Shown: positions 3,092 through 18,680 of the stretch, one piece after another
Position numbering within the stretch: the stretch's first letter is position 1
How the letters are laid out: each line of letters opens with the position of its first letter
Virus record (IMG/VR): IMGVR_UViG_3300037743_000091
Reading direction: 5' to 3' (one strand)
Length of the DNA: 18,838 nucleotides
DNA from: a virus
Taxonomy: Duplodnaviria > Heunggongvirae > Uroviricota > Caudoviricetes
Notes under the pieces: generated by a model
Seen by the model: only the letters and a program-made list of their open reading frames with translations
The model's database searches: none
What the model was told of the DNA's origin: nothing
Position numbers and translations under genes: made by a program

Positions 3092-3925
3092 ATGGCTTTT
3101 GCACCCGCGACGGTAGTCGATCCGATCGCGCGTTCGGCGCTGCCGTACGGGCTGTTCTCGGCCCTCGCCCCGCGTCCTGCCGGGGATCTTCGCTGGACGA
3201 ATGGTGTTGTCTGGGAACCCCTGACCTGTGATCCTGCCTCTGGTATTGGTGATCCGGAGTGTGAGGAACCCGAGGATCAAACAGTTGCTATCGGGCTGCC
3301 TAAGCAATTCCCCCCGGGGGCTGGTGTTGATGACGCCTCTTCCTTCGCGGTTTATGGGTCCTACGTCTGTACGCCTACTGGGCACACGGTCGAATGGGCC
3401 CGGGATCGCGCGACGGAACACCTGCTCGCCCGCGAGGAAGCTCGCGTTGAACAGGCGCTCTGGACCGGGGACCTGGGCAATGAGCCAAACTTCTCGACGG
3501 GGACACTCCAGACGGGGGCAGCCGTTCCGATCGCGGTAGCTATCGCGATGGCGGAGCAGGACATCGCTGAGAACTACGGGTCTCTCGGAGTCATCCACAT
3601 GTCTCGTGGAATCGCTCAGCGCGCCTTGTCGGAACGGGCCCTGGTCACGGTAGGAACTCGGCTGTTCACGATGCTGGGAACTCCTGTGATCGCGGGTGCG
3701 GGATATCCGGAGGCGTCACCCATCGATGGAACCCCTGGTCTCTACATCGTGGCTTCGCCCGCGTTGATGCTGTACCGCTCGGAGATCTTCTACCCGTCCG
3801 ATCGTCCCGGTGATCTACTCGACCGTGGGCAGAACAACCTGCACGCCGTGGCCGAACGGAACTACTTGCTCGGATTCGATGAATGCCCTGGGATCTACGT
3901 ATATGAAGTGGAGGAGCTGGTCTGA
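3092..3925 (+). CDS. second capsid protein (cluster-B-like 'pentamer' type), 277 aa
   Basis: RBS AAGGAGG then ATG 3092. N-terminus MAFAPATVVDPIARSALPYGLFS and its position after the major capsid gene match my recollection of cluster-B-type pentamer proteins. Confidence 0.65.
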   Translation: MAFAPATVVDPIARSALPYGLFSALAPRPAGDLRWTNGVVWEPLTCDPASGIGDPECEEPEDQTVAIGLPKQFPPGAGVDDASSFAVYGSYVCTPTGHTVEWARDRATEHLLAREEARVEQALWTGDLGNEPNFSTGTLQTGAAVPIAVAIAMAEQDIAENYGSLGVIHMSRGIAQRALSERALVTVGTRLFTMLGTPVIAGAGYPEASPIDGTPGLYIVASPALMLYRSEIFYPSDRPGDLLDRGQNNLHAVAERNYLLGFDECPGIYVYEVEELV

Positions 3926-15112: not shown

Positions 15113-15250
15113 TTACTCCTCCCTCTTGGGTCGTCCGGTACAGCGCGGGTTCCCTTCGCAGGTGCAGTCGTACCCGCCACCAACGATGGGAGGGCACCGC
15201 CCGCAGCAGTGCTCCGGACGGGGCCCTCCCTCGACCTCCAGATCCGGCAT
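15113..15250 (-). CDS. Cys-rich microprotein (45 aa), translationally coupled to rsr
   Basis: ATG overlaps the rsr stop (TGATG at 15250). Sequence MPDLEVEGGPRPEHCCGRCPPIVGGGYDCTCEGNPRCTGRPKREE. It fills the intergenic gap exactly. Too short for the ORF track. Confidence 0.7.
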   Translation of the reverse strand: MPDLEVEGGPRPEHCCGRCPPIVGGGYDCTCEGNPRCTGRPKREE

Positions 15251-16947
15251 CAGACCTTCCCGGCGATGAAGTCCGAGATGATGCGCGGCGCTGAGGAATC
15301 GAACCCTACGACGTCGAGCGCGTTCTGATCCTGGGGGTCCGCGATCGTGAAGCCCGTGGAGGTCATACCCACCACGATCAGCTTCGCGTCCGCGATCCCG
15401 CAGGACTTGCGGTACTGGCGCAGGGCCTCCATCGGCTGGACCTTACCGGCGTACGTCTCCGAGTCCGTGTAGATCACGAAGGCGTCGTACTTGCGCCCCT
15501 GACCCTCGGCCCAGAGCATCGGCAGGGCGCAGTCCGTTGCACCCATGCGGAGGTTCCGGACAGTCCGCAGGTTGTCGTCCAGGCGACGCTGAGGCGACAG
15601 CGTGATCTCCTCGATGCCATCCCGACCTCCCCAGGCAGAACGCTGTGAGTGAGCGGACCAACCCGTCGAGGTGAATGCCACGGTGTCCGTGGTGTTCGGG
15701 TCCGCCGCGAGAGTCGCGATTGCCATGGCGGCAGAACCCTCACGCGCGCTGACGTTCGAGTTCATGATGTTGTACATCCCCATCGAACCCGAGATGTCCA
15801 GAGCGATGCACACGCGCTTCCCCGTGGGCTCGACGTTCTGGAACGCGAGACGGAACGCCTTGTCCAGTGCGTCCACGATCGGCTGCCGAGGCGTCCACGT
15901 GAGCGAGCCACGGAAGCCTCCCCCCTCGGAGTACGTCTTGAGGGCCAGGAGGACGTTGAACGGGTGTACCCGAGCACGCTGCACGTTCTCCGGATCGGCC
16001 AGGGTACGCACAACCTCACCCTGAACCTTGGCACCGGTCACACCCTGTGTGAACACGTCCAGGGCCGTCATACGCCCGAGGTTCCGCATCATCGCCGTGT
16101 ACGGCAGACGCTTGCCCATGATGAGAGCACGCCACACACCCGGGTCCTTGAGGGAGTCCGTGGGCAGCATCTCCCACGACAGGTCCAGCGCCTCCTTCGG
16201 GTCGAGTTCACCCGACTTGACGCGCTCGAACTGCCCGAGGATGCGAGCAGCCCCGACGTTCTCCGGCGTCGGACCGTTGACCGCGTAGTTGAGCACCTGG
16301 TTCAGCGTGCCGTCCCCCGCCTTCGGGTGCCCGAGGCGCAGAACGTCCCGGTGAACCCAACCGCCCCGCCGCCGGTACTTGAGCACCTGGTAGGCGAGCT
16401 TGTCCACGTCCTGGGCGAGGTACCAGTTCGAGAGCATGGCGCGCAGGCCCCGGCTGCCCTTCGTGTATGCCGAGATGTAGTCGGTGAACTCGAACATGTG
16501 CGTACCCGTACGCACGAACTCCCGGAAGCGCTCCTTGATCGCCTCGCCCACGGGGTGAACCGCGTTGCGCTTGATCGGCGAACCGTTCGGCCGGACACGA
16601 CCGGTGTCCTGAACCTGCGGCTCCGGAATCCGGCTCTTGAGGAGAGCGAGGGCGAAGAGCACCGTGGAGTGACGCGGAGCCGCGTTCGTCACGTTCACGT
16701 CCGCAAGCACCCGGAAGTAACCCTCGGGGTCCTTGTCCGCGTACTCCGTGAGGAACTGGACGCTGTCACGCATGTGCGTGCGCTGATCGACGTAGTAGGT
16801 ACCACCTTCCGCGCCGAGGATCAGGAACCGGCGGAGCCGGTTCGCGTCGCTGACGCCGTAGACGTATCCACCTGCGTTGTTCTCGATCTGGCGGGAATCG
16901 GCACGCTCGGTCTGCGTCGGGATGCCCTGCATGTCGCGGTACTTCAT
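15250..16947 (-). CDS. rsr: Ro60 / TROVE-domain RNA-binding protein (Rsr) with C-terminal vWA domain
   Basis: 565 aa. N-terminal NNAGGYVY...RLRRFLILGAEGGTYY, RTGTHMFEF, YQVLKYRRRGGWVHRDVLRLGHP, LPYTAMMRNLGRMT and RVHPFNVL. vWA MIDAS ALDISGSM, GATDCALPM, VIYTDSET, TIADP..LDVVGFD. RBS AAGGAGA. Confidence 0.97.
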   Translation of the reverse strand: MKYRDMQGIPTQTERADSRQIENNAGGYVYGVSDANRLRRFLILGAEGGTYYVDQRTHMRDSVQFLTEYADKDPEGYFRVLADVNVTNAAPRHSTVLFALALLKSRIPEPQVQDTGRVRPNGSPIKRNAVHPVGEAIKERFREFVRTGTHMFEFTDYISAYTKGSRGLRAMLSNWYLAQDVDKLAYQVLKYRRRGGWVHRDVLRLGHPKAGDGTLNQVLNYAVNGPTPENVGAARILGQFERVKSGELDPKEALDLSWEMLPTDSLKDPGVWRALIMGKRLPYTAMMRNLGRMTALDVFTQGVTGAKVQGEVVRTLADPENVQRARVHPFNVLLALKTYSEGGGFRGSLTWTPRQPIVDALDKAFRLAFQNVEPTGKRVCIALDISGSMGMYNIMNSNVSAREGSAAMAIATLAADPNTTDTVAFTSTGWSAHSQRSAWGGRDGIEEITLSPQRRLDDNLRTVRNLRMGATDCALPMLWAEGQGRKYDAFVIYTDSETYAGKVQPMEALRQYRKSCGIADAKLIVVGMTSTGFTIADPQDQNALDVVGFDSSAPRIISDFIAGKV

Positions 16948-16967
16948 GGTGTTTCTCCTTCCATCGG

Positions 16968-17008
16968 AAAAAGCGAGTGGCCCCGTCTCCGAAGAAACGG
17001 GGCCACTC
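16968..17008 (-). terminator. intrinsic terminator between Y RNA array and rsr
   Basis: Minus strand GAGUGGCCCCGUUUC-UUCG-GAGACGGGGCCACUC-GC-UUUUU, ending about 20 nt before the rsr ATG. Confidence 0.8.
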
Positions 17009-17015
17009 TCTGGGG

Positions 17016-17085
17016 TCAGCGGATAAGTAATGATGTTCGGGTGTGTTCACCATAAGAAGATAACCGAACATCAGCGACCCGCTGA
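17016..17085 (-). ncRNA. short Y RNA-like unit Y7 (70 nt; Lys-CUU-like loop)
   Basis: UCAGCGG-GUCG...UUAU-CCGCUGA terminal helix. Inner stem UGAUGUUCGG/CCGAACAUCA. UAUC-UUCUUAU-GGUG hairpin. Confidence 0.8.
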
Positions 17086-17094
17086 TACAAGTGA

Positions 17095-17165
17095 GTGGCA
17101 GATAAAGGAAACTGGAATCGGGGGAATCATTAGCATTGATAACCGAATCCAGGGCGACCCGCCAC
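17095..17165 (-). ncRNA. short Y RNA-like unit Y6 (71 nt; Ser-GCU-like loop)
   Basis: GUGGCGG-GUCG...UUAU-CUGCCAC. Inner stem CUGGAUUCGG/CCGAUUCCAG. AUCA-AUGCUAA-UGAU hairpin. Confidence 0.8.
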
Positions 17166-17180
17166 AGTATTTAATTGTTG

Positions 17181-17320
17181 AGCGTGGCAGATAAATGATC
17201 AGGATTCGGGGTTGGACGGCTGCTCTGCCACTTGAGCTATACCCCAGGTAACTGGGGCAAGAGGAATCGAACCTCTAACATGCTGTTTTTGATAACCGAA
17301 GCCTTTCGACCCGCCACGCT
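17181..17320 (-). ncRNA. YrlA-type Y RNA unit Y5 (140 nt; permuted tRNA module, CAA-like heptamer)
   Basis: AGCGUGGCGG-GUCG...UUAU-CUGCCACGCU. T arm AGAGG-UUCGAUU-CCUCU. Loop-closed acceptor UGCCCCAG-UUAC-CUGGGGUA. D arm GCUC-AAGUGGCA-GAGC. Confidence 0.9.
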
Positions 17321-17333
17321 ATGAAATTGTGAA

Positions 17334-17402
17334 ACGGCAGATAAGAGAATTGAAATCGGGATGATCGTTTCAGGTGATAACCGACCTCAGGCGACCCGCC
17401 GT
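17334..17402 (-). ncRNA. short Y RNA-like unit Y4 (69 nt; Phe-GAA-like loop)
   Basis: ACGGCGG-GUCG...UUAU-CUGCCGU. Inner stem UGAGGUCGG/CCGAUUUCA. Loop contains CUGAAAC. Confidence 0.8.
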
Positions 17403-17418
17403 ATGTTGAGTTGTTAGG

Positions 17419-17491
17419 TGTGGTAGATAAGTGAGTGGAATCGGGGGAGTTCTTTTGCGAAAAGATAACCGAATCCGTTCGACCCACCACA
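17419..17491 (-). ncRNA. short Y RNA-like unit Y3 (73 nt; Ala-CGC-like loop)
   Basis: UGUGGUGG-GUCG...UUAU-CUACCACA. Inner stem GGAUUCGG/CCGAUUCC. UCUU-UUCGCAA-AAGA hairpin. Confidence 0.8.
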
Positions 17492-17504
17492 GTACTAAGT
17501 GGGA

Positions 17505-17644
17505 GTGGCAGATAAATTGGGTGTGCATCGGATATATACCAGTGCGCTAACCGAGCTGCGCTACCTCCCGCTGTTGCCGGGAGGAGAGGATTTGAACCTC
17601 TGACCCCTGGTTCCTGAGATAACCGATACGTGACGACCCGCCAC
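17505..17644 (-). ncRNA. YrlA-type Y RNA unit Y2 (140 nt; permuted tRNA-Pro-like body, CAG heptamer)
   Basis: GUGGCGG-GUCG...UUAU-CUGCCAC. T arm AGAGG-UUCAAAU-CCUCU. Acceptor CCUCCCG/CGGGAGG closed by a loop. D arm GCGC-AGCUCGGUUA-GCGC. Anticodon stem CUGGU/ACCAG. Confidence 0.9.
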
Positions 17645-17758
17645 AATGTGAAGTTGTTGGTCCTGCTGGTAGAACGGGCTGACCTATCATCACAAGTCGC
17701 TGAGCGAGAGTGACAGGAATCAGCAGCCGGTACGGTTCACCCGTAGCGTTCAAGTAGT

Positions 17759-17897
17759 CCTGACAGATAAAGAGTGAGCATCGGGTTTAAGCGCTCTAAC
17801 CAGTTGAGCTACCCCCGCCGTGTGAGCCGGGGGACGGGGCTCGAACCCGCAACCTCTCCATTACAAGTGGGTAACCGATCCTCAGCGACCCGTCAGG
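17759..17897 (-). ncRNA. YrlA-type Y RNA unit Y1 (139 nt; permuted tRNA-Thr(UGU)-like module)
   Basis: CCUGACGG-GUCG...UUAU-CUGUCAGG. CCA-CUUGUAA-UGG anticodon hairpin. T arm GCGGG-UUCGAGC-CCCGU. Acceptor CCCCCG/CGGGGG. D arm GCUC-AACUGGUUA-GAGC. Confidence 0.9.
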
Positions 17898-17924: not shown

Positions 17925-17953
17925 ACTGTACCACGTCCCTCGGGGTCGCGCTA
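17925..17953 (-). promoter_or_regulatory. putative sigma70/HrdB-type promoter for the Y RNA array
   Basis: Extended -10 TG-G-TACAGT (17933-17925), 17-bp spacer, weak -35 TAGCGC (17953-17948). Predicted TSS about 17918, 20 nt before Y1. Confidence 0.5.
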
Positions 17954-18496: not shown

Positions 18497-18497
18497 G

Positions 18498-18571
18498 TGA
18501 CCCCGGTGGGATTCGAACCCACACTGTCCGCTACTTGAAGGCGGCGCCTCTGCCAGTTGGGCTACGGGGCC
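18498..18571 (-). tRNA. tRNA-Leu(CAA), short variable loop, CCA not encoded
   Basis: GGCCCCG/CGGGGUC acceptor, A73. D arm GCC-CAACUGGCAGA-GGC. Anticodon loop UUCAAGU (G37) with a C31.A39 mismatch. T arm GUGGG-UUCGAAU-CCCAC. Resembles the actinobacterial short-arm tRNA-Leu(CAA). Confidence 0.9.
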
Positions 18572-18574
18572 TCG

Positions 18575-18680
18575 TGGTTCCGGCAGGGTTCGAACCTGCA
18601 CTGATACGCGGGTGTGGACGCCGCGCTGCCTCTACCTCGGCCTACTTCCTAGGATTTCGACCTTGTTGGGCTACGGAACC
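18575..18680 (-). tRNA. atypical Leu-scaffold tRNA-like RNA (106 nt) with D-loop insertion and 9-nt anticodon loop
   Basis: Perfect acceptor GGUUCCG/CGGAACC with A73. T arm GCAGG-UUCGAAC-CCUGC. D stem GCC/GGC with a 38-nt loop. 6-bp stem GCGCGG/CCGCGU with loop CGUCCACAC. Confidence 0.7.

What the first reader, a model, noticed from the sequence alone, without database searches (positions are those of the whole stretch)
15250..17897. Phage-encoded Ro60 with a seven-gene Y RNA array of two architectures
Seen: seven units immediately upstream of rsr, all with terminal helix-GG-GUCG ... UUAU-C(U/C)-helix. This can form a bulged-C helix like the Ro60-binding site. Terminal and inner stems differ in sequence but keep pairing, which amounts to covariation within the array. 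Three units (~140 nt) carry a T arm, loop-closed acceptor and D arm; four (~70 nt) do not. Known: bacterial Rsr binds Y RNAs (D. radiodurans Yrn1 tethers PNPase; Salmonella rsr-yrlBA-rtcBA responds to tRNA damage via RtcR), YrlA RNAs mimic tRNA, and some phages encode Ro60/YrlA, usually with one or two Y RNAs per locus. Inference: an expanded, diversified Ro60 RNP repertoire. The short class may not match current YrlA models.
Basis: partly seen in the sequence, partly recalled or inferred. Interest (0 to 1): 0.85.

Follow-up and report, generated by a model that had tools for sequence, protein, structure and literature searches.

The report
Phage Ro60 with seven Y RNAs
An uncultured phage carries a gene for the ring-shaped RNA-binding protein Ro60, preceded by seven small partner-RNA (Y RNA) genes, three of them tRNA mimics and four minimal hairpins; multi-RNA arrays like this proved common beside Ro60 genes in phages and bacteria, although the papers I could read describe only one to three per locus.

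Summary
On the minus strand, rsr (15250-16947) encodes a full-length Ro60 with TROVE and Ro60-vWA domains. It is preceded by exactly seven units (17016-17896), followed by an intrinsic terminator. All seven share one handle: a 9-10 bp terminal helix, a bulged C, a G-U pair, an internal loop and a second helix ending in GGUUAUC/CCCGA.

Three units (134-140 nt) carry a T arm, a loop-closed acceptor stem and a D arm, which is the YrlA design. Four units (69-71 nt) carry only a small apical hairpin. Rfam's YrlA model scores the long units far below its threshold and misses the short ones.

A covariance model built only from the four short window units finds the same RNA upstream of rsr in related phages. 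Broader models find arrays on the rsr strand in 73 of 80 phage loci (mostly 2-6 units, up to 10) and in 76 of 80 bacterial loci (1-6 units).

So this is a real, large Y RNA array, but arrays are the norm rather than a peculiarity of this phage. This scan has noted similar phage Ro60/Y-RNA arrays on other DNA before.

The parts
15250..16947 (-). rsr: Ro60 orthologue, 565 aa (TROVE ring plus vWA domain)
   Evidence: Pfam vWA_Ro60 E 5e-56 and TROVE E 6e-38. PHROG 850 RNA-binding protein, E 4e-66. Matches PDB 2NVO Rsr at E 1e-92 over residues 11-565.
16955..16962 (-). Shine-Dalgarno-like GGAAGGAG, 7 nt before the rsr ATG
   Evidence: Read directly from the sequence.
16968..17008 (-). Intrinsic terminator between the array and rsr: 15-bp stem, 4-nt loop, then a U run
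   Evidence: Terminator scan. The same element occupies the same place in relatives L122, L123, L124 and L147.
17016..17085 (-). U7, short Y RNA (70 nt); apical loop UUCUUAU
   Evidence: R3 73.3 bits, E 1e-16. The MFE fold shows both handle helices, z -5.6.
17095..17165 (-). U6, short Y RNA (71 nt); apical loop AUGCUAA
   Evidence: R3 57.8 bits. Fold z -4.0.
17184..17317 (-). U5, long YrlA-type Y RNA (134 nt): handle plus T arm, 7-bp closed acceptor stem and D arm
   Evidence: R2 108.4 bits. Rfam YrlA 29.7 bits. Fold z -2.9.
17334..17402 (-). U4, short Y RNA (69 nt)
   Evidence: R3 62.5 bits. Fold z -1.8.
17420..17490 (-). U3, short Y RNA (71 nt); carries the full GUCGAACG form of the GNCGAAN0-1G motif
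   Evidence: R3 71 bits. Fold z -2.8.
17505..17644 (-). U2, long YrlA-type Y RNA (140 nt) with a perfect 7-bp closed acceptor stem
   Evidence: R2 101.4 bits. Rfam YrlA 27.1 bits. Fold z -3.2.
17645..17759 (-). 115-nt spacer between U1 and U2; not a unit
   Evidence: No model hit at E<=10. Fold z -0.8.
17760..17896 (-). U1, long YrlA-type Y RNA (137 nt); the only unit matched end to end by Rfam YrlA
   Evidence: Rfam YrlA 34 bits, model positions 1-114. R2 105.6 bits. Its handle is closest to the first unit of L124 and L123.
17925..17953 (-). Possible promoter (TAGCGC, 17 nt, TACAGT) just after the stop codon of the upstream ORF; weak and inferred
   Evidence: Read from the sequence. The consensus scan found no sigma-70-type site. 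Relatives have TTGCGC-N17-TA(A/G)GTT just before their first unit.

Best explanation
This is a phage Ro60/Y-RNA module. Seven Y RNA genes lie head to tail upstream of rsr. They are most likely transcribed as one precursor that ends at the terminator before rsr, then cut in the short spacers into separate RNAs of about 70 nt and about 135 nt.

Each RNA carries the same handle:
- a terminal helix whose last four pairs are GGGU/AUCY;
- a bulged C followed by a G-U pair;
- an internal loop;
- a second helix closed by GG/CC and flanked by UUAUC and CCC.

This handle corresponds to the GNCG(AA) bulged helix that Ro60 recognises in known Y RNAs, so each RNA should sit on the outer face of the phage Ro60 ring.

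The apical ends differ. Three units display a permuted tRNA body (T arm, closed acceptor stem, D arm). Four display only a small hairpin.

By analogy with D. radiodurans, Salmonella and Thermus phage phiLo, these variable ends would act as adaptors or gates. [quoted passage not shown] One protein would then be given several specificities during infection.

Shown here: the genes, the shared covarying structure, and the conserved linkage to rsr. Inferred: transcription, processing, Ro60 binding and the partners.
For: Protein: a full-length Ro60 orthologue.

Within the window:
- There are exactly seven units with one motif pair, far above chance.
- 95% of handle cells are paired, and 10 of 19 pairs are compensated among the seven copies.
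- The MFE folds give the handle, with z from -1.8 to -5.6.

Independent comparative support:
- Model R1, built only from the four short window units, finds short units just upstream of rsr in five other phage contigs (E 2.5e-11 to 1.5e-3).
- On these 13 short units, 89% of cells are paired against about 40% when partners are slid, and 12 of 19 pairs are compensated.
- On 134 distinct phage units, 91.7% of cells are paired and 17 of 19 pairs are compensated. The pair next to the bulged C switches between C-G (71) and U-A (62).
- The long units give the YrlA architecture by RNAalifold on an unguided MAFFT alignment.

Linkage:
- All 145 R3 hits lie on the rsr strand, and 251 of 252 R2 hits at E<=0.1 do. 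Most lie within 1 kb upstream of the gene.
- The same holds in bacterial loci.

Precedent:
- In M. smegmatis, YrlA and YrlB lie upstream of rsr, come from one precursor and are bound by Rsr. The GNCGAAN0-1G motif is described there (PMC4201824).
- Thermus phage phiLo Ro60 binds two upstream Yrl RNAs and forms ternary complexes with host PNPase (PMC12135203).
Against: - There are no expression, processing or binding data for this phage.
- Only U3 and U5 carry the full GNCGAA motif. The other five have GUCG followed by C or U.
- None of the seven units reaches Rfam's YrlA gathering score.
- The terminator before rsr leaves it unclear how rsr itself is transcribed.
- No convincing promoter was found.
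- The covariation counts on model-made alignments lean towards the model's structure.
- My first unit boundaries in the relatives were chosen by requiring end pairing.
Confidence: 0.78

Rival explanations
1. The array is mainly a cis-acting leader of the rsr mRNA. The repeated handles would be Ro60 binding sites through which the protein feeds back on termination or read-through at the hairpin before its own gene. They would not be free-standing trans-acting RNAs.
For: The array sits directly upstream of rsr on the same strand, with a strong terminator in between and no separate rsr promoter detected. This layout is conserved in the closest relatives.
Against: - In other phages the units lie downstream of rsr or scattered in tRNA arrays (Sixama L001; L141, L152). 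A leader could not act from there.
- My strict detector found a terminator in only 17 of 72 phage loci.
- In M. smegmatis and phage phiLo the upstream RNAs are discrete species bound by Ro60 (PMC4201824, PMC12135203).
- The two roles are not mutually exclusive.
Confidence: 0.08
2. The units act without Ro60, as tRNA-like and anticodon-loop-like decoys or processing punctuation. Examples would be RNase P or RNase E cleavage sites, or baits for host tRNA-targeting nucleases. On this view their linkage to rsr reflects only shared regulation.
For: - U1, U2 and U5 have T arms and 6-7 bp closed acceptor stems, which are RNase P-type substrates.
- Four units have 7-nt loops of the form Y-U-NNN-A-W.
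- Phage tRNA genes lie just upstream.
Against: The most conserved part of every unit is not the tRNA-like part. It is the handle, which matches the known Ro60-binding motif and is present in units with no tRNA feature at all. Hits of the handle model on the rsr strand close to the gene in about 150 loci argue for a direct partnership.
Confidence: 0.08
3. The units are decaying remnants of tandem tRNA genes or selfish repeats with no function.
For: The long units contain tRNA-derived arms. A junction of two real tRNA genes in the window (18547-18599) gives a partial R2 hit of 28 bits.
Against: - The copies are diverged (52-82% handle identity) yet keep pairing through compensatory changes.
- The first unit has a positional counterpart in relatives whose Ro60 is only about 55% identical.
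- The short units have no tRNA features.
Confidence: 0.03

Closest known systems
YrlA and YrlB of Mycobacterium smegmatis and Salmonella Typhimurium (Chen et al. 2013; Chen et al. 2014, PMC4201824; Rfam RF02553)
   Same: - The RNAs are encoded upstream of rsr on the same strand.
- The handle carries the GNCG(AA) motif.
- The long RNA is about 135-147 nt, with a T arm, a closed acceptor stem (7 bp in M. smegmatis) and a D arm.
- A second, different RNA lies between YrlA and rsr.
- In M. smegmatis both RNAs come from one precursor.
- U1's linker (UUACCCACUUGUAAUGGAG) closely resembles the M. smegmatis YrlA 5' probe region.
   Different: - There are seven genes instead of two, with three YrlA-type units rather than one.
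- The short units (about 70 nt) lack even the T arm reported for M. smegmatis YrlB.
- All seven units fall below Rfam's YrlA cut-off, and the short ones are not detected at all.
Mycobacteriophage YrlA (ET08 and other cluster C phages; Chen et al. 2014)
   Same: A phage-encoded Ro60 has a YrlA-type RNA just upstream. My long-unit model hits phage Catera at L282 3630-3775 with 87.5 bits.
   Different: In the text I could read, the paper reports YrlA-related sequences in 22 phages. I find that Catera also has two short units flanking that YrlA (3532-3606 and 3808-3879). None of them is annotated in the GenBank record. The window has more than twice as many units.
Thermus phage phiLo Ro60 with Yrl1 and Yrl2 (PMC12135203, NAR 2025)
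   Same: A phage Ro60 has Y RNA-like genes upstream. They were identified by a stem-bulge-stem shape and a CGAA motif. Binding and ternary complexes with host PNPase were shown in vitro.
   Different: phiLo has two RNAs rather than seven. Its Ro60 was not among the tblastn matches to this protein. I could not compare its RNAs directly.
Deinococcus radiodurans Rsr with Yrn1 and Yrn2 (the RYPER complex with PNPase)
   Same: The Ro60 orthologue is the closest solved structure (2NVO, E 1e-92). Several small RNAs are encoded upstream of rsr. The Y RNA acts as a tether between Ro60 and an exoribonuclease.
   Different: The Yrn1 tRNA-like module has a different arm order (PMC4201824). No PNPase link has been shown for this phage.
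Metazoan Y RNAs (hY1, hY3, hY4, hY5)
   Same: They have the same stem / bulged-C / stem plus loop design, about 70-110 nt long, with several paralogues per genome binding one Ro60. From memory, hY RNAs also have GGGUUAU after the upper stem and a C-run before its 3' strand, as here (GGUUAUC ... CCCCCGA). This resemblance was not tested.
   Different: They are dispersed Pol III genes, not a tandem array, and they have no tRNA-like module.

Membership tests
Ro60 / Rsr (TROVE family) | TROVE (HEAT-repeat ring) domain | tested here: met
   Pfam PF05731, E 6e-38, 131.5 bits against a cut-off of 23.
Ro60 / Rsr (TROVE family) | C-terminal Ro60-type vWA domain | tested here: met
   Pfam PF25045, E 5e-56, covering profile positions 1-165 of 165.
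Ro60 / Rsr (TROVE family) | Full-length similarity to structurally characterised Ro60 proteins | tested here: met
   2NVO (Rsr) E 1e-92 over residues 11-565. 1YVP (Xenopus Ro60) E 6e-85. 9NEN (human RO60) E 1e-81.
Y RNA (bacterial/phage, in the sense of Chen et al. 2014) | 5' and 3' ends pair into a long stem that holds a bulged helix with the GNCGAAN0-1G motif on the 5' strand | tested here: met
   The stem with a bulged C is present in all 7 units. GUCG is present in 7 of 7. The full GUCGAA(N)G form is present only in U3 and U5, though it is the rule in relatives.
Y RNA (bacterial/phage, in the sense of Chen et al. 2014) | Encoded within about 4 kb of the Ro60 gene on the same strand | tested here: met
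   All seven units lie 69-950 nt upstream of the rsr start on the same strand.
Y RNA (bacterial/phage, in the sense of Chen et al. 2014) | Expressed as a discrete small RNA and bound by Ro60 | not testable with these tools
No RNA-protein prediction tool was offered.
YrlA (Rfam RF02553) | Reaches the family's curated gathering score (69 bits) | tested here: not met
   U1 34 bits, U5 29.7, U2 27.1. The short units give no hit at E<=10. The Rfam seed is largely proteobacterial in character, and even phage Sixama's YrlA scores only 46.8.
YrlA (Rfam RF02553) | tRNA-like module in the order T arm, closed acceptor stem, D arm, inserted in the Ro60-binding stem | tested here: met
   Met for U1, U2 and U5. 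RNAalifold on 13 long units gives a T arm of 5 bp with a GGUUCRA loop, an acceptor stem of 7 bp, a D arm and both handle helices, with 20 of 30 pairs compensated. Not met for U3, U4, U6 and U7.
YrlA (Rfam RF02553) | Recognised by tRNA enzymes (RNase P cleavage, CCA addition, D and pseudouridine modification) | not testable with these tools
   This requires experiment. U2 and U5 have the 7-bp acceptor stem that the authors link to RNase P cleavage in M. smegmatis.

The most novel reading that the evidence does not exclude
The Ro60 handle acts as a universal socket, and the array is a library of interchangeable heads that mimic different parts of tRNA. The long units present the elbow and acceptor end. 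The small apical hairpins present anticodon-stem-loop look-alikes with a different triplet in each unit: UGU, CGC, GCU and CUU in U1, U3, U6 and U7.

The phage Ro60 particle would then bait, sense or block host enzymes that read anticodon loops, such as anticodon nucleases of anti-phage defence or tRNA-modifying enzymes.

The Y-U-NNN-R-N loop is enriched in short units (20% of phage units and 55% of bacterial units, against 2-4% in shuffles). The idea that it is read as an anticodon is pure inference.
Probability: 0.1. Interest if true: 0.85.

Novelty: new variant of a known kind. Interest (0 to 1): 0.55.

Why it matters
The role of Ro60 and Y RNAs in bacteria and phages is still poorly understood. 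The working model is that the Y RNA is an adaptor that decides what the Ro60 ring does.

A locus where one Ro60 is served by seven RNAs with one constant handle and different heads is a natural experiment for that model. Each head can be tested for its own protein partner.

The wider results are also practical:
- Multi-unit arrays are the rule beside rsr in 73 of 80 phage loci and 76 of 80 bacterial loci.
- A conserved short class escapes the only Rfam model.
- Well-studied cultured phages (Catera, FuzzBuster, Sixama, Comrade) carry unannotated units at defined coordinates, so the predictions can be tested in existing laboratory systems.

Tried and rejected
- **Simple finder.** A regex plus end-pairing finder for units gave as many hits on the wrong strand as on the right one (212 against 196). 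I abandoned it for covariance models.
- **MAFFT alignments of mixed units.** Alignments of all units (A1, A7) misplace the 3' strand of the inner helix by one column in some rows, so RNAalifold recovered only the terminal helix there. I did not type a long structure string for A7. Instead I used model-made alignments and a separate long-unit alignment.
- **Model R1.** R1 (four short window units) does not align the long units properly. R3, built from 13 short units, does.
- **An eighth unit.** The 115-nt U1-U2 spacer is not a degenerate unit: it gives no model hit and folds at z -0.8.
- **Nucleotide search of cultured phages.** The search with the array found only short tRNA-like matches. No close relative of this phage is in that collection; the best Ro60 identity is 45%.
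- **Whole genome.** No whole genome is held for the window.
- **Reviews.** Two reviews on bacterial Y RNAs (PMC10870794, PMC6047535) and the supplementary tables of Chen et al. 2014 were not available. I therefore cannot exclude that larger arrays are mentioned there.
- **Promoter.** The sigma-70-type promoter scan found nothing upstream of the array.
Full report
**What is in the window.** The window is phage DNA. The plus strand carries a major head protein, head-tail adaptor, major tail protein, tape measure and minor tail proteins. A minus-strand block converges on this structural module. In order it holds:
- a tRNA-like gene and tRNA-Leu(CAA);
- two small ORFs;
- the non-coding stretch 17016-17896;
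- a terminator;
- a 565-codon ORF at 16947-15250;
- two further small ORFs.

No whole genome is held for the window. No close relative is in the cultured-phage collection, where the best Ro60 identity is 45%, to Gordonia phages.

**The protein.** The ORF is a full-length Ro60 orthologue.
- Pfam vWA_Ro60 scores E 5e-56 and TROVE scores E 6e-38.
- PHROG 850 matches.
- It gives end-to-end matches to the solved D. radiodurans Rsr (2NVO, E 1e-92), Xenopus Ro60 and human RO60.

**The seven units.** The 5' motif GGGTCG-N5-11-CGGTTA occurs exactly seven times, all on the rsr strand between 17061 and 17891, against 0.03 expected. The matching 3' motif CCGA-N8-16-TTATC occurs seven times in the same stretch.

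Each unit folds, in its own MFE structure, into the same elements (z -1.8 to -5.6):
- a terminal helix of 9-10 pairs, made of five variable pairs plus GGGU/AUCY;
- an unpaired C, then a G-U pair;
- an asymmetric internal loop;
- a second helix of 7-10 pairs, closed by CGG/CCG and flanked by UUAUC on the 5' side and a C-run on the 3' side.

Under that structure, 126 of 133 cells among the seven copies are standard pairs. Ten of the 19 pairs change on both sides while staying paired.

The copies are old rather than recent duplicates. Handle identity is 52-82%.

A full-model scan of the whole window finds these seven units and nothing else. The next hit has E 2.9. The 115-nt gap between U1 and U2 is not a degenerate unit.

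**Two architectures.** U1, U2 and U5 (137, 140 and 134 nt) insert three elements into the apical loop:
- a T arm with a GGUUCRA loop;
- a 6-7 bp stem closed by a loop, in the position of an acceptor stem;
- a D arm.

This is the permuted tRNA body of YrlA. Rfam's YrlA model matches them at 34 bits (U1, end to end), 29.7 and 27.1 bits, well below its 69-bit cut-off. U3, U4, U6 and U7 (69-71 nt) have only a small apical hairpin and give no Rfam hit even at E<=10.

**Comparative evidence.** Searching IMG/VR with the protein, and with a DNA pattern taken from the handle, brought in phage contigs with the same layout of array, terminator and rsr:
- L122, with ten units by eye and a Ro60 57% identical;
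- L123, with six units;
- L124 (the same contig as L002), with five;
- L147 (the same contig as L016), with six;
- L144 (the same contig as L079), with three.

Model R1 was built only from the four short window units. It finds short units at the expected places in all five relatives (E 2.5e-11 to 1.5e-3). This test is independent of my own boundary picking.

On those 13 short units, 89% of cells are paired against 32-46% when the partners are slid. Twelve of 19 pairs are compensated.

Thirteen long units were aligned by MAFFT without structural guidance. RNAalifold recovers both handle helices, the T arm, the acceptor stem and part of the D arm, with 20 of 30 pairs compensated.

On 134 distinct phage units aligned to the broader short-class model R3, 91.7% of cells are paired and 17 of 19 pairs are compensated. 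The pair beside the bulged C alternates between C-G (71) and U-A (62). The pair after the bulge alternates between G-U and G-C. These model-made alignments lean towards the model's structure, so the slid controls and the unguided alignment matter most.

**How common this is.** I scanned 80 IMG/VR Ro60 loci with R2 (long-unit model) and R3.
- All 145 R3 hits and 251 of the 252 R2 hits at E<=0.1 are on the rsr strand. Most lie within 1 kb upstream of the gene.
- After merging, 73 of 80 loci have at least one unit.
- The number of upstream units per locus is 4 in 21 loci, 2 in 16, 3 in 14, 5 in 9, 6 in 4 and 9 in one.
- These are lower bounds, and the loci are not de-replicated.

Eighty bacterial and MAG rsr loci (Nocardia, Propionibacteriales, Verrucomicrobiota, Gemmatimonadota, Alphaproteobacteria and others) behave the same way. 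Of these, 76 have hits, with 1-6 units each, and all hits are on the rsr strand.

Cultured, annotated phages also carry unannotated units:
- Mycobacterium phage Catera has a YrlA-type unit flanked by two short ones.
- Microbacterium phage FuzzBuster has one long and two short units.
- Gordonia phage Cashline has two long units.
- Streptomyces phage Comrade has three.
- Gordonia phage Sixama has four, interleaved with its tRNA array.

Seven units is therefore at the upper end of a continuous distribution. The closest clade (window, L122-L124) is the most expanded.

**What is known.** Chen et al. 2014 (PMC4201824) made the following points:
- They reported YrlA-like RNAs near rsr in 254 bacteria and 22 phages.
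- They defined the GNCGAAN0-1G motif.
- In M. smegmatis they showed YrlA (147 nt, 7-bp acceptor stem, cut by RNase P, CCA added) and a second RNA, YrlB. Both lie upstream of rsr, both come from one precursor, and both are bound by Rsr.

Thermus phage phiLo Ro60 binds two upstream Yrl RNAs and forms ternary complexes with host PNPase (PMC12135203). A Listeria phage study suspected that three abundant RNAs upstream of an Rsr-like gene are Y RNAs (PMC12282133).

I found no description of arrays of five to ten units, or of the short class as a family. However, two reviews and the 2014 supplementary tables were not available to me.

Within this scan, many earlier notes on other DNA describe phage Ro60 genes with arrays of handle-bearing RNAs. 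Those are unchecked AI notes and I did not use them as evidence.

**Mechanism.**

Shown:
- seven genes with one covarying handle and two kinds of head;
- conserved linkage to rsr.

Inferred:
- One transcript starts near a weak promoter-like site (17953-17925) and ends at the terminator 17008-16968, which would make the RNAs in excess over rsr mRNA.
- The transcript is cut in the short spacers. The spacers have a median length of about 15-23 nt across arrays. The pentamer ACAAC occurs in 45 of 128 short spacers, and it or ACAAU occurs in four window spacers.
- The handle binds the outer face of Ro60.

**Rivals.** Three rival readings are less likely:
- a purely cis-acting autoregulatory leader;
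- Ro60-independent tRNA decoys;
- decaying tRNA genes.

The reasons are that the handle is the most conserved part and matches the known Ro60 site, that units occur away from the rsr 5' end in some phages, and that pairing is maintained by compensation.

In the window, U1, U3, U6 and U7 have apical hairpins with 7-nt loops of the form Y-U-NNN-A-W: CUUGUAA, UUCGCAA, AUGCUAA and UUCUUAU. U2, U4 and U5 do not.

Among distinct short units elsewhere, such loops (U at position 2, purine at position 6, T-loops excluded) occur in 15 of 75 phage units and 33 of 60 bacterial units, against 2-4% after shuffling. The bacterial consensus is C-U-N-N-N-A-A. The loop signature is real. That it is read as an anticodon is untested.

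**Verdict.** This is a large member of a widespread but under-described kind of locus, not a singular oddity.

Novelty is moderate. It rests on the array size, on the unmodelled short class, and on the general finding that arrays are the norm.

Expression and binding remain to be shown.

Noticed in passing
window 18575-18680 (-): A tRNA-like gene lies directly 5' of tRNA-Leu(CAA) (18497-18571). Rfam tRNA scores it at 32.3 bits, but ARAGORN does not call it. It has a normal acceptor stem and T arm, an insertion of about 33 nt forming a hairpin in the D region, and an oversized (9-11 nt) anticodon-type loop. Its fold has z -2.8.
   Followed up: partly
window spacers 17086-17094, 17166-17183, 17318-17333, 17403-17419, 17491-17504; loci L122-L124: Spacers between units are short and share an ACAAC(U) motif. 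It occurs in 45 of 128 short spacers across the phage arrays. In the window, ACAAC or ACAAU occurs in four spacers. This is a candidate processing signal.
   Followed up: partly
window 17040-17060 (U7), 17118-17138 (U6), 17446-17466 (U3), 17855-17870 (U1): The apical hairpins have 7-nt loops shaped like anticodon loops (Y-U-NNN-A-W), with a different middle triplet in each unit. The same signature is enriched in short units of other phages (20%) and bacteria (55%), against 2-4% in shuffles.
   Followed up: partly
L282 3532-3606, 3630-3775, 3808-3879; L286 3660-3791, 3808-3875, 3887-3950; L001 3670-3735, 6652-6781, 6860-6990, 7070-7147; L284 2031-2155, 3051-3121, 3142-3275: The cultured phages Catera, FuzzBuster, Sixama and Comrade carry Y RNA-like units in stretches that their GenBank records leave unannotated. 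In Sixama the units are interleaved with the tRNA array downstream of the Ro gene.
   Followed up: yes
window 18547-18599 (-): The junction of the two tandem tRNA genes (T arm and acceptor 3' strand of one, acceptor 5' strand and D arm of the next) gives a partial hit to the long-unit model (28 bits, model positions 44-98). This illustrates how the permuted tRNA body of YrlA-type RNAs could arise from a tRNA-tRNA junction.
   Followed up: no
L122 2743-2875, 2896-2994, 3009-3117, 3131-3252; L147 2670-2768, 2910-2999; L123 3094-3210: Some units in related arrays carry heads that are neither tRNA-like nor minimal: extra hairpins, or a lone T arm, at 90-133 nt. The heads are therefore more diverse than two classes.
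   Followed up: no
window 15113-15253 (-): A 46-codon Cys-rich ORF lies immediately downstream of rsr and overlaps its stop codon. It has no Pfam or PHROG match.
   Followed up: no
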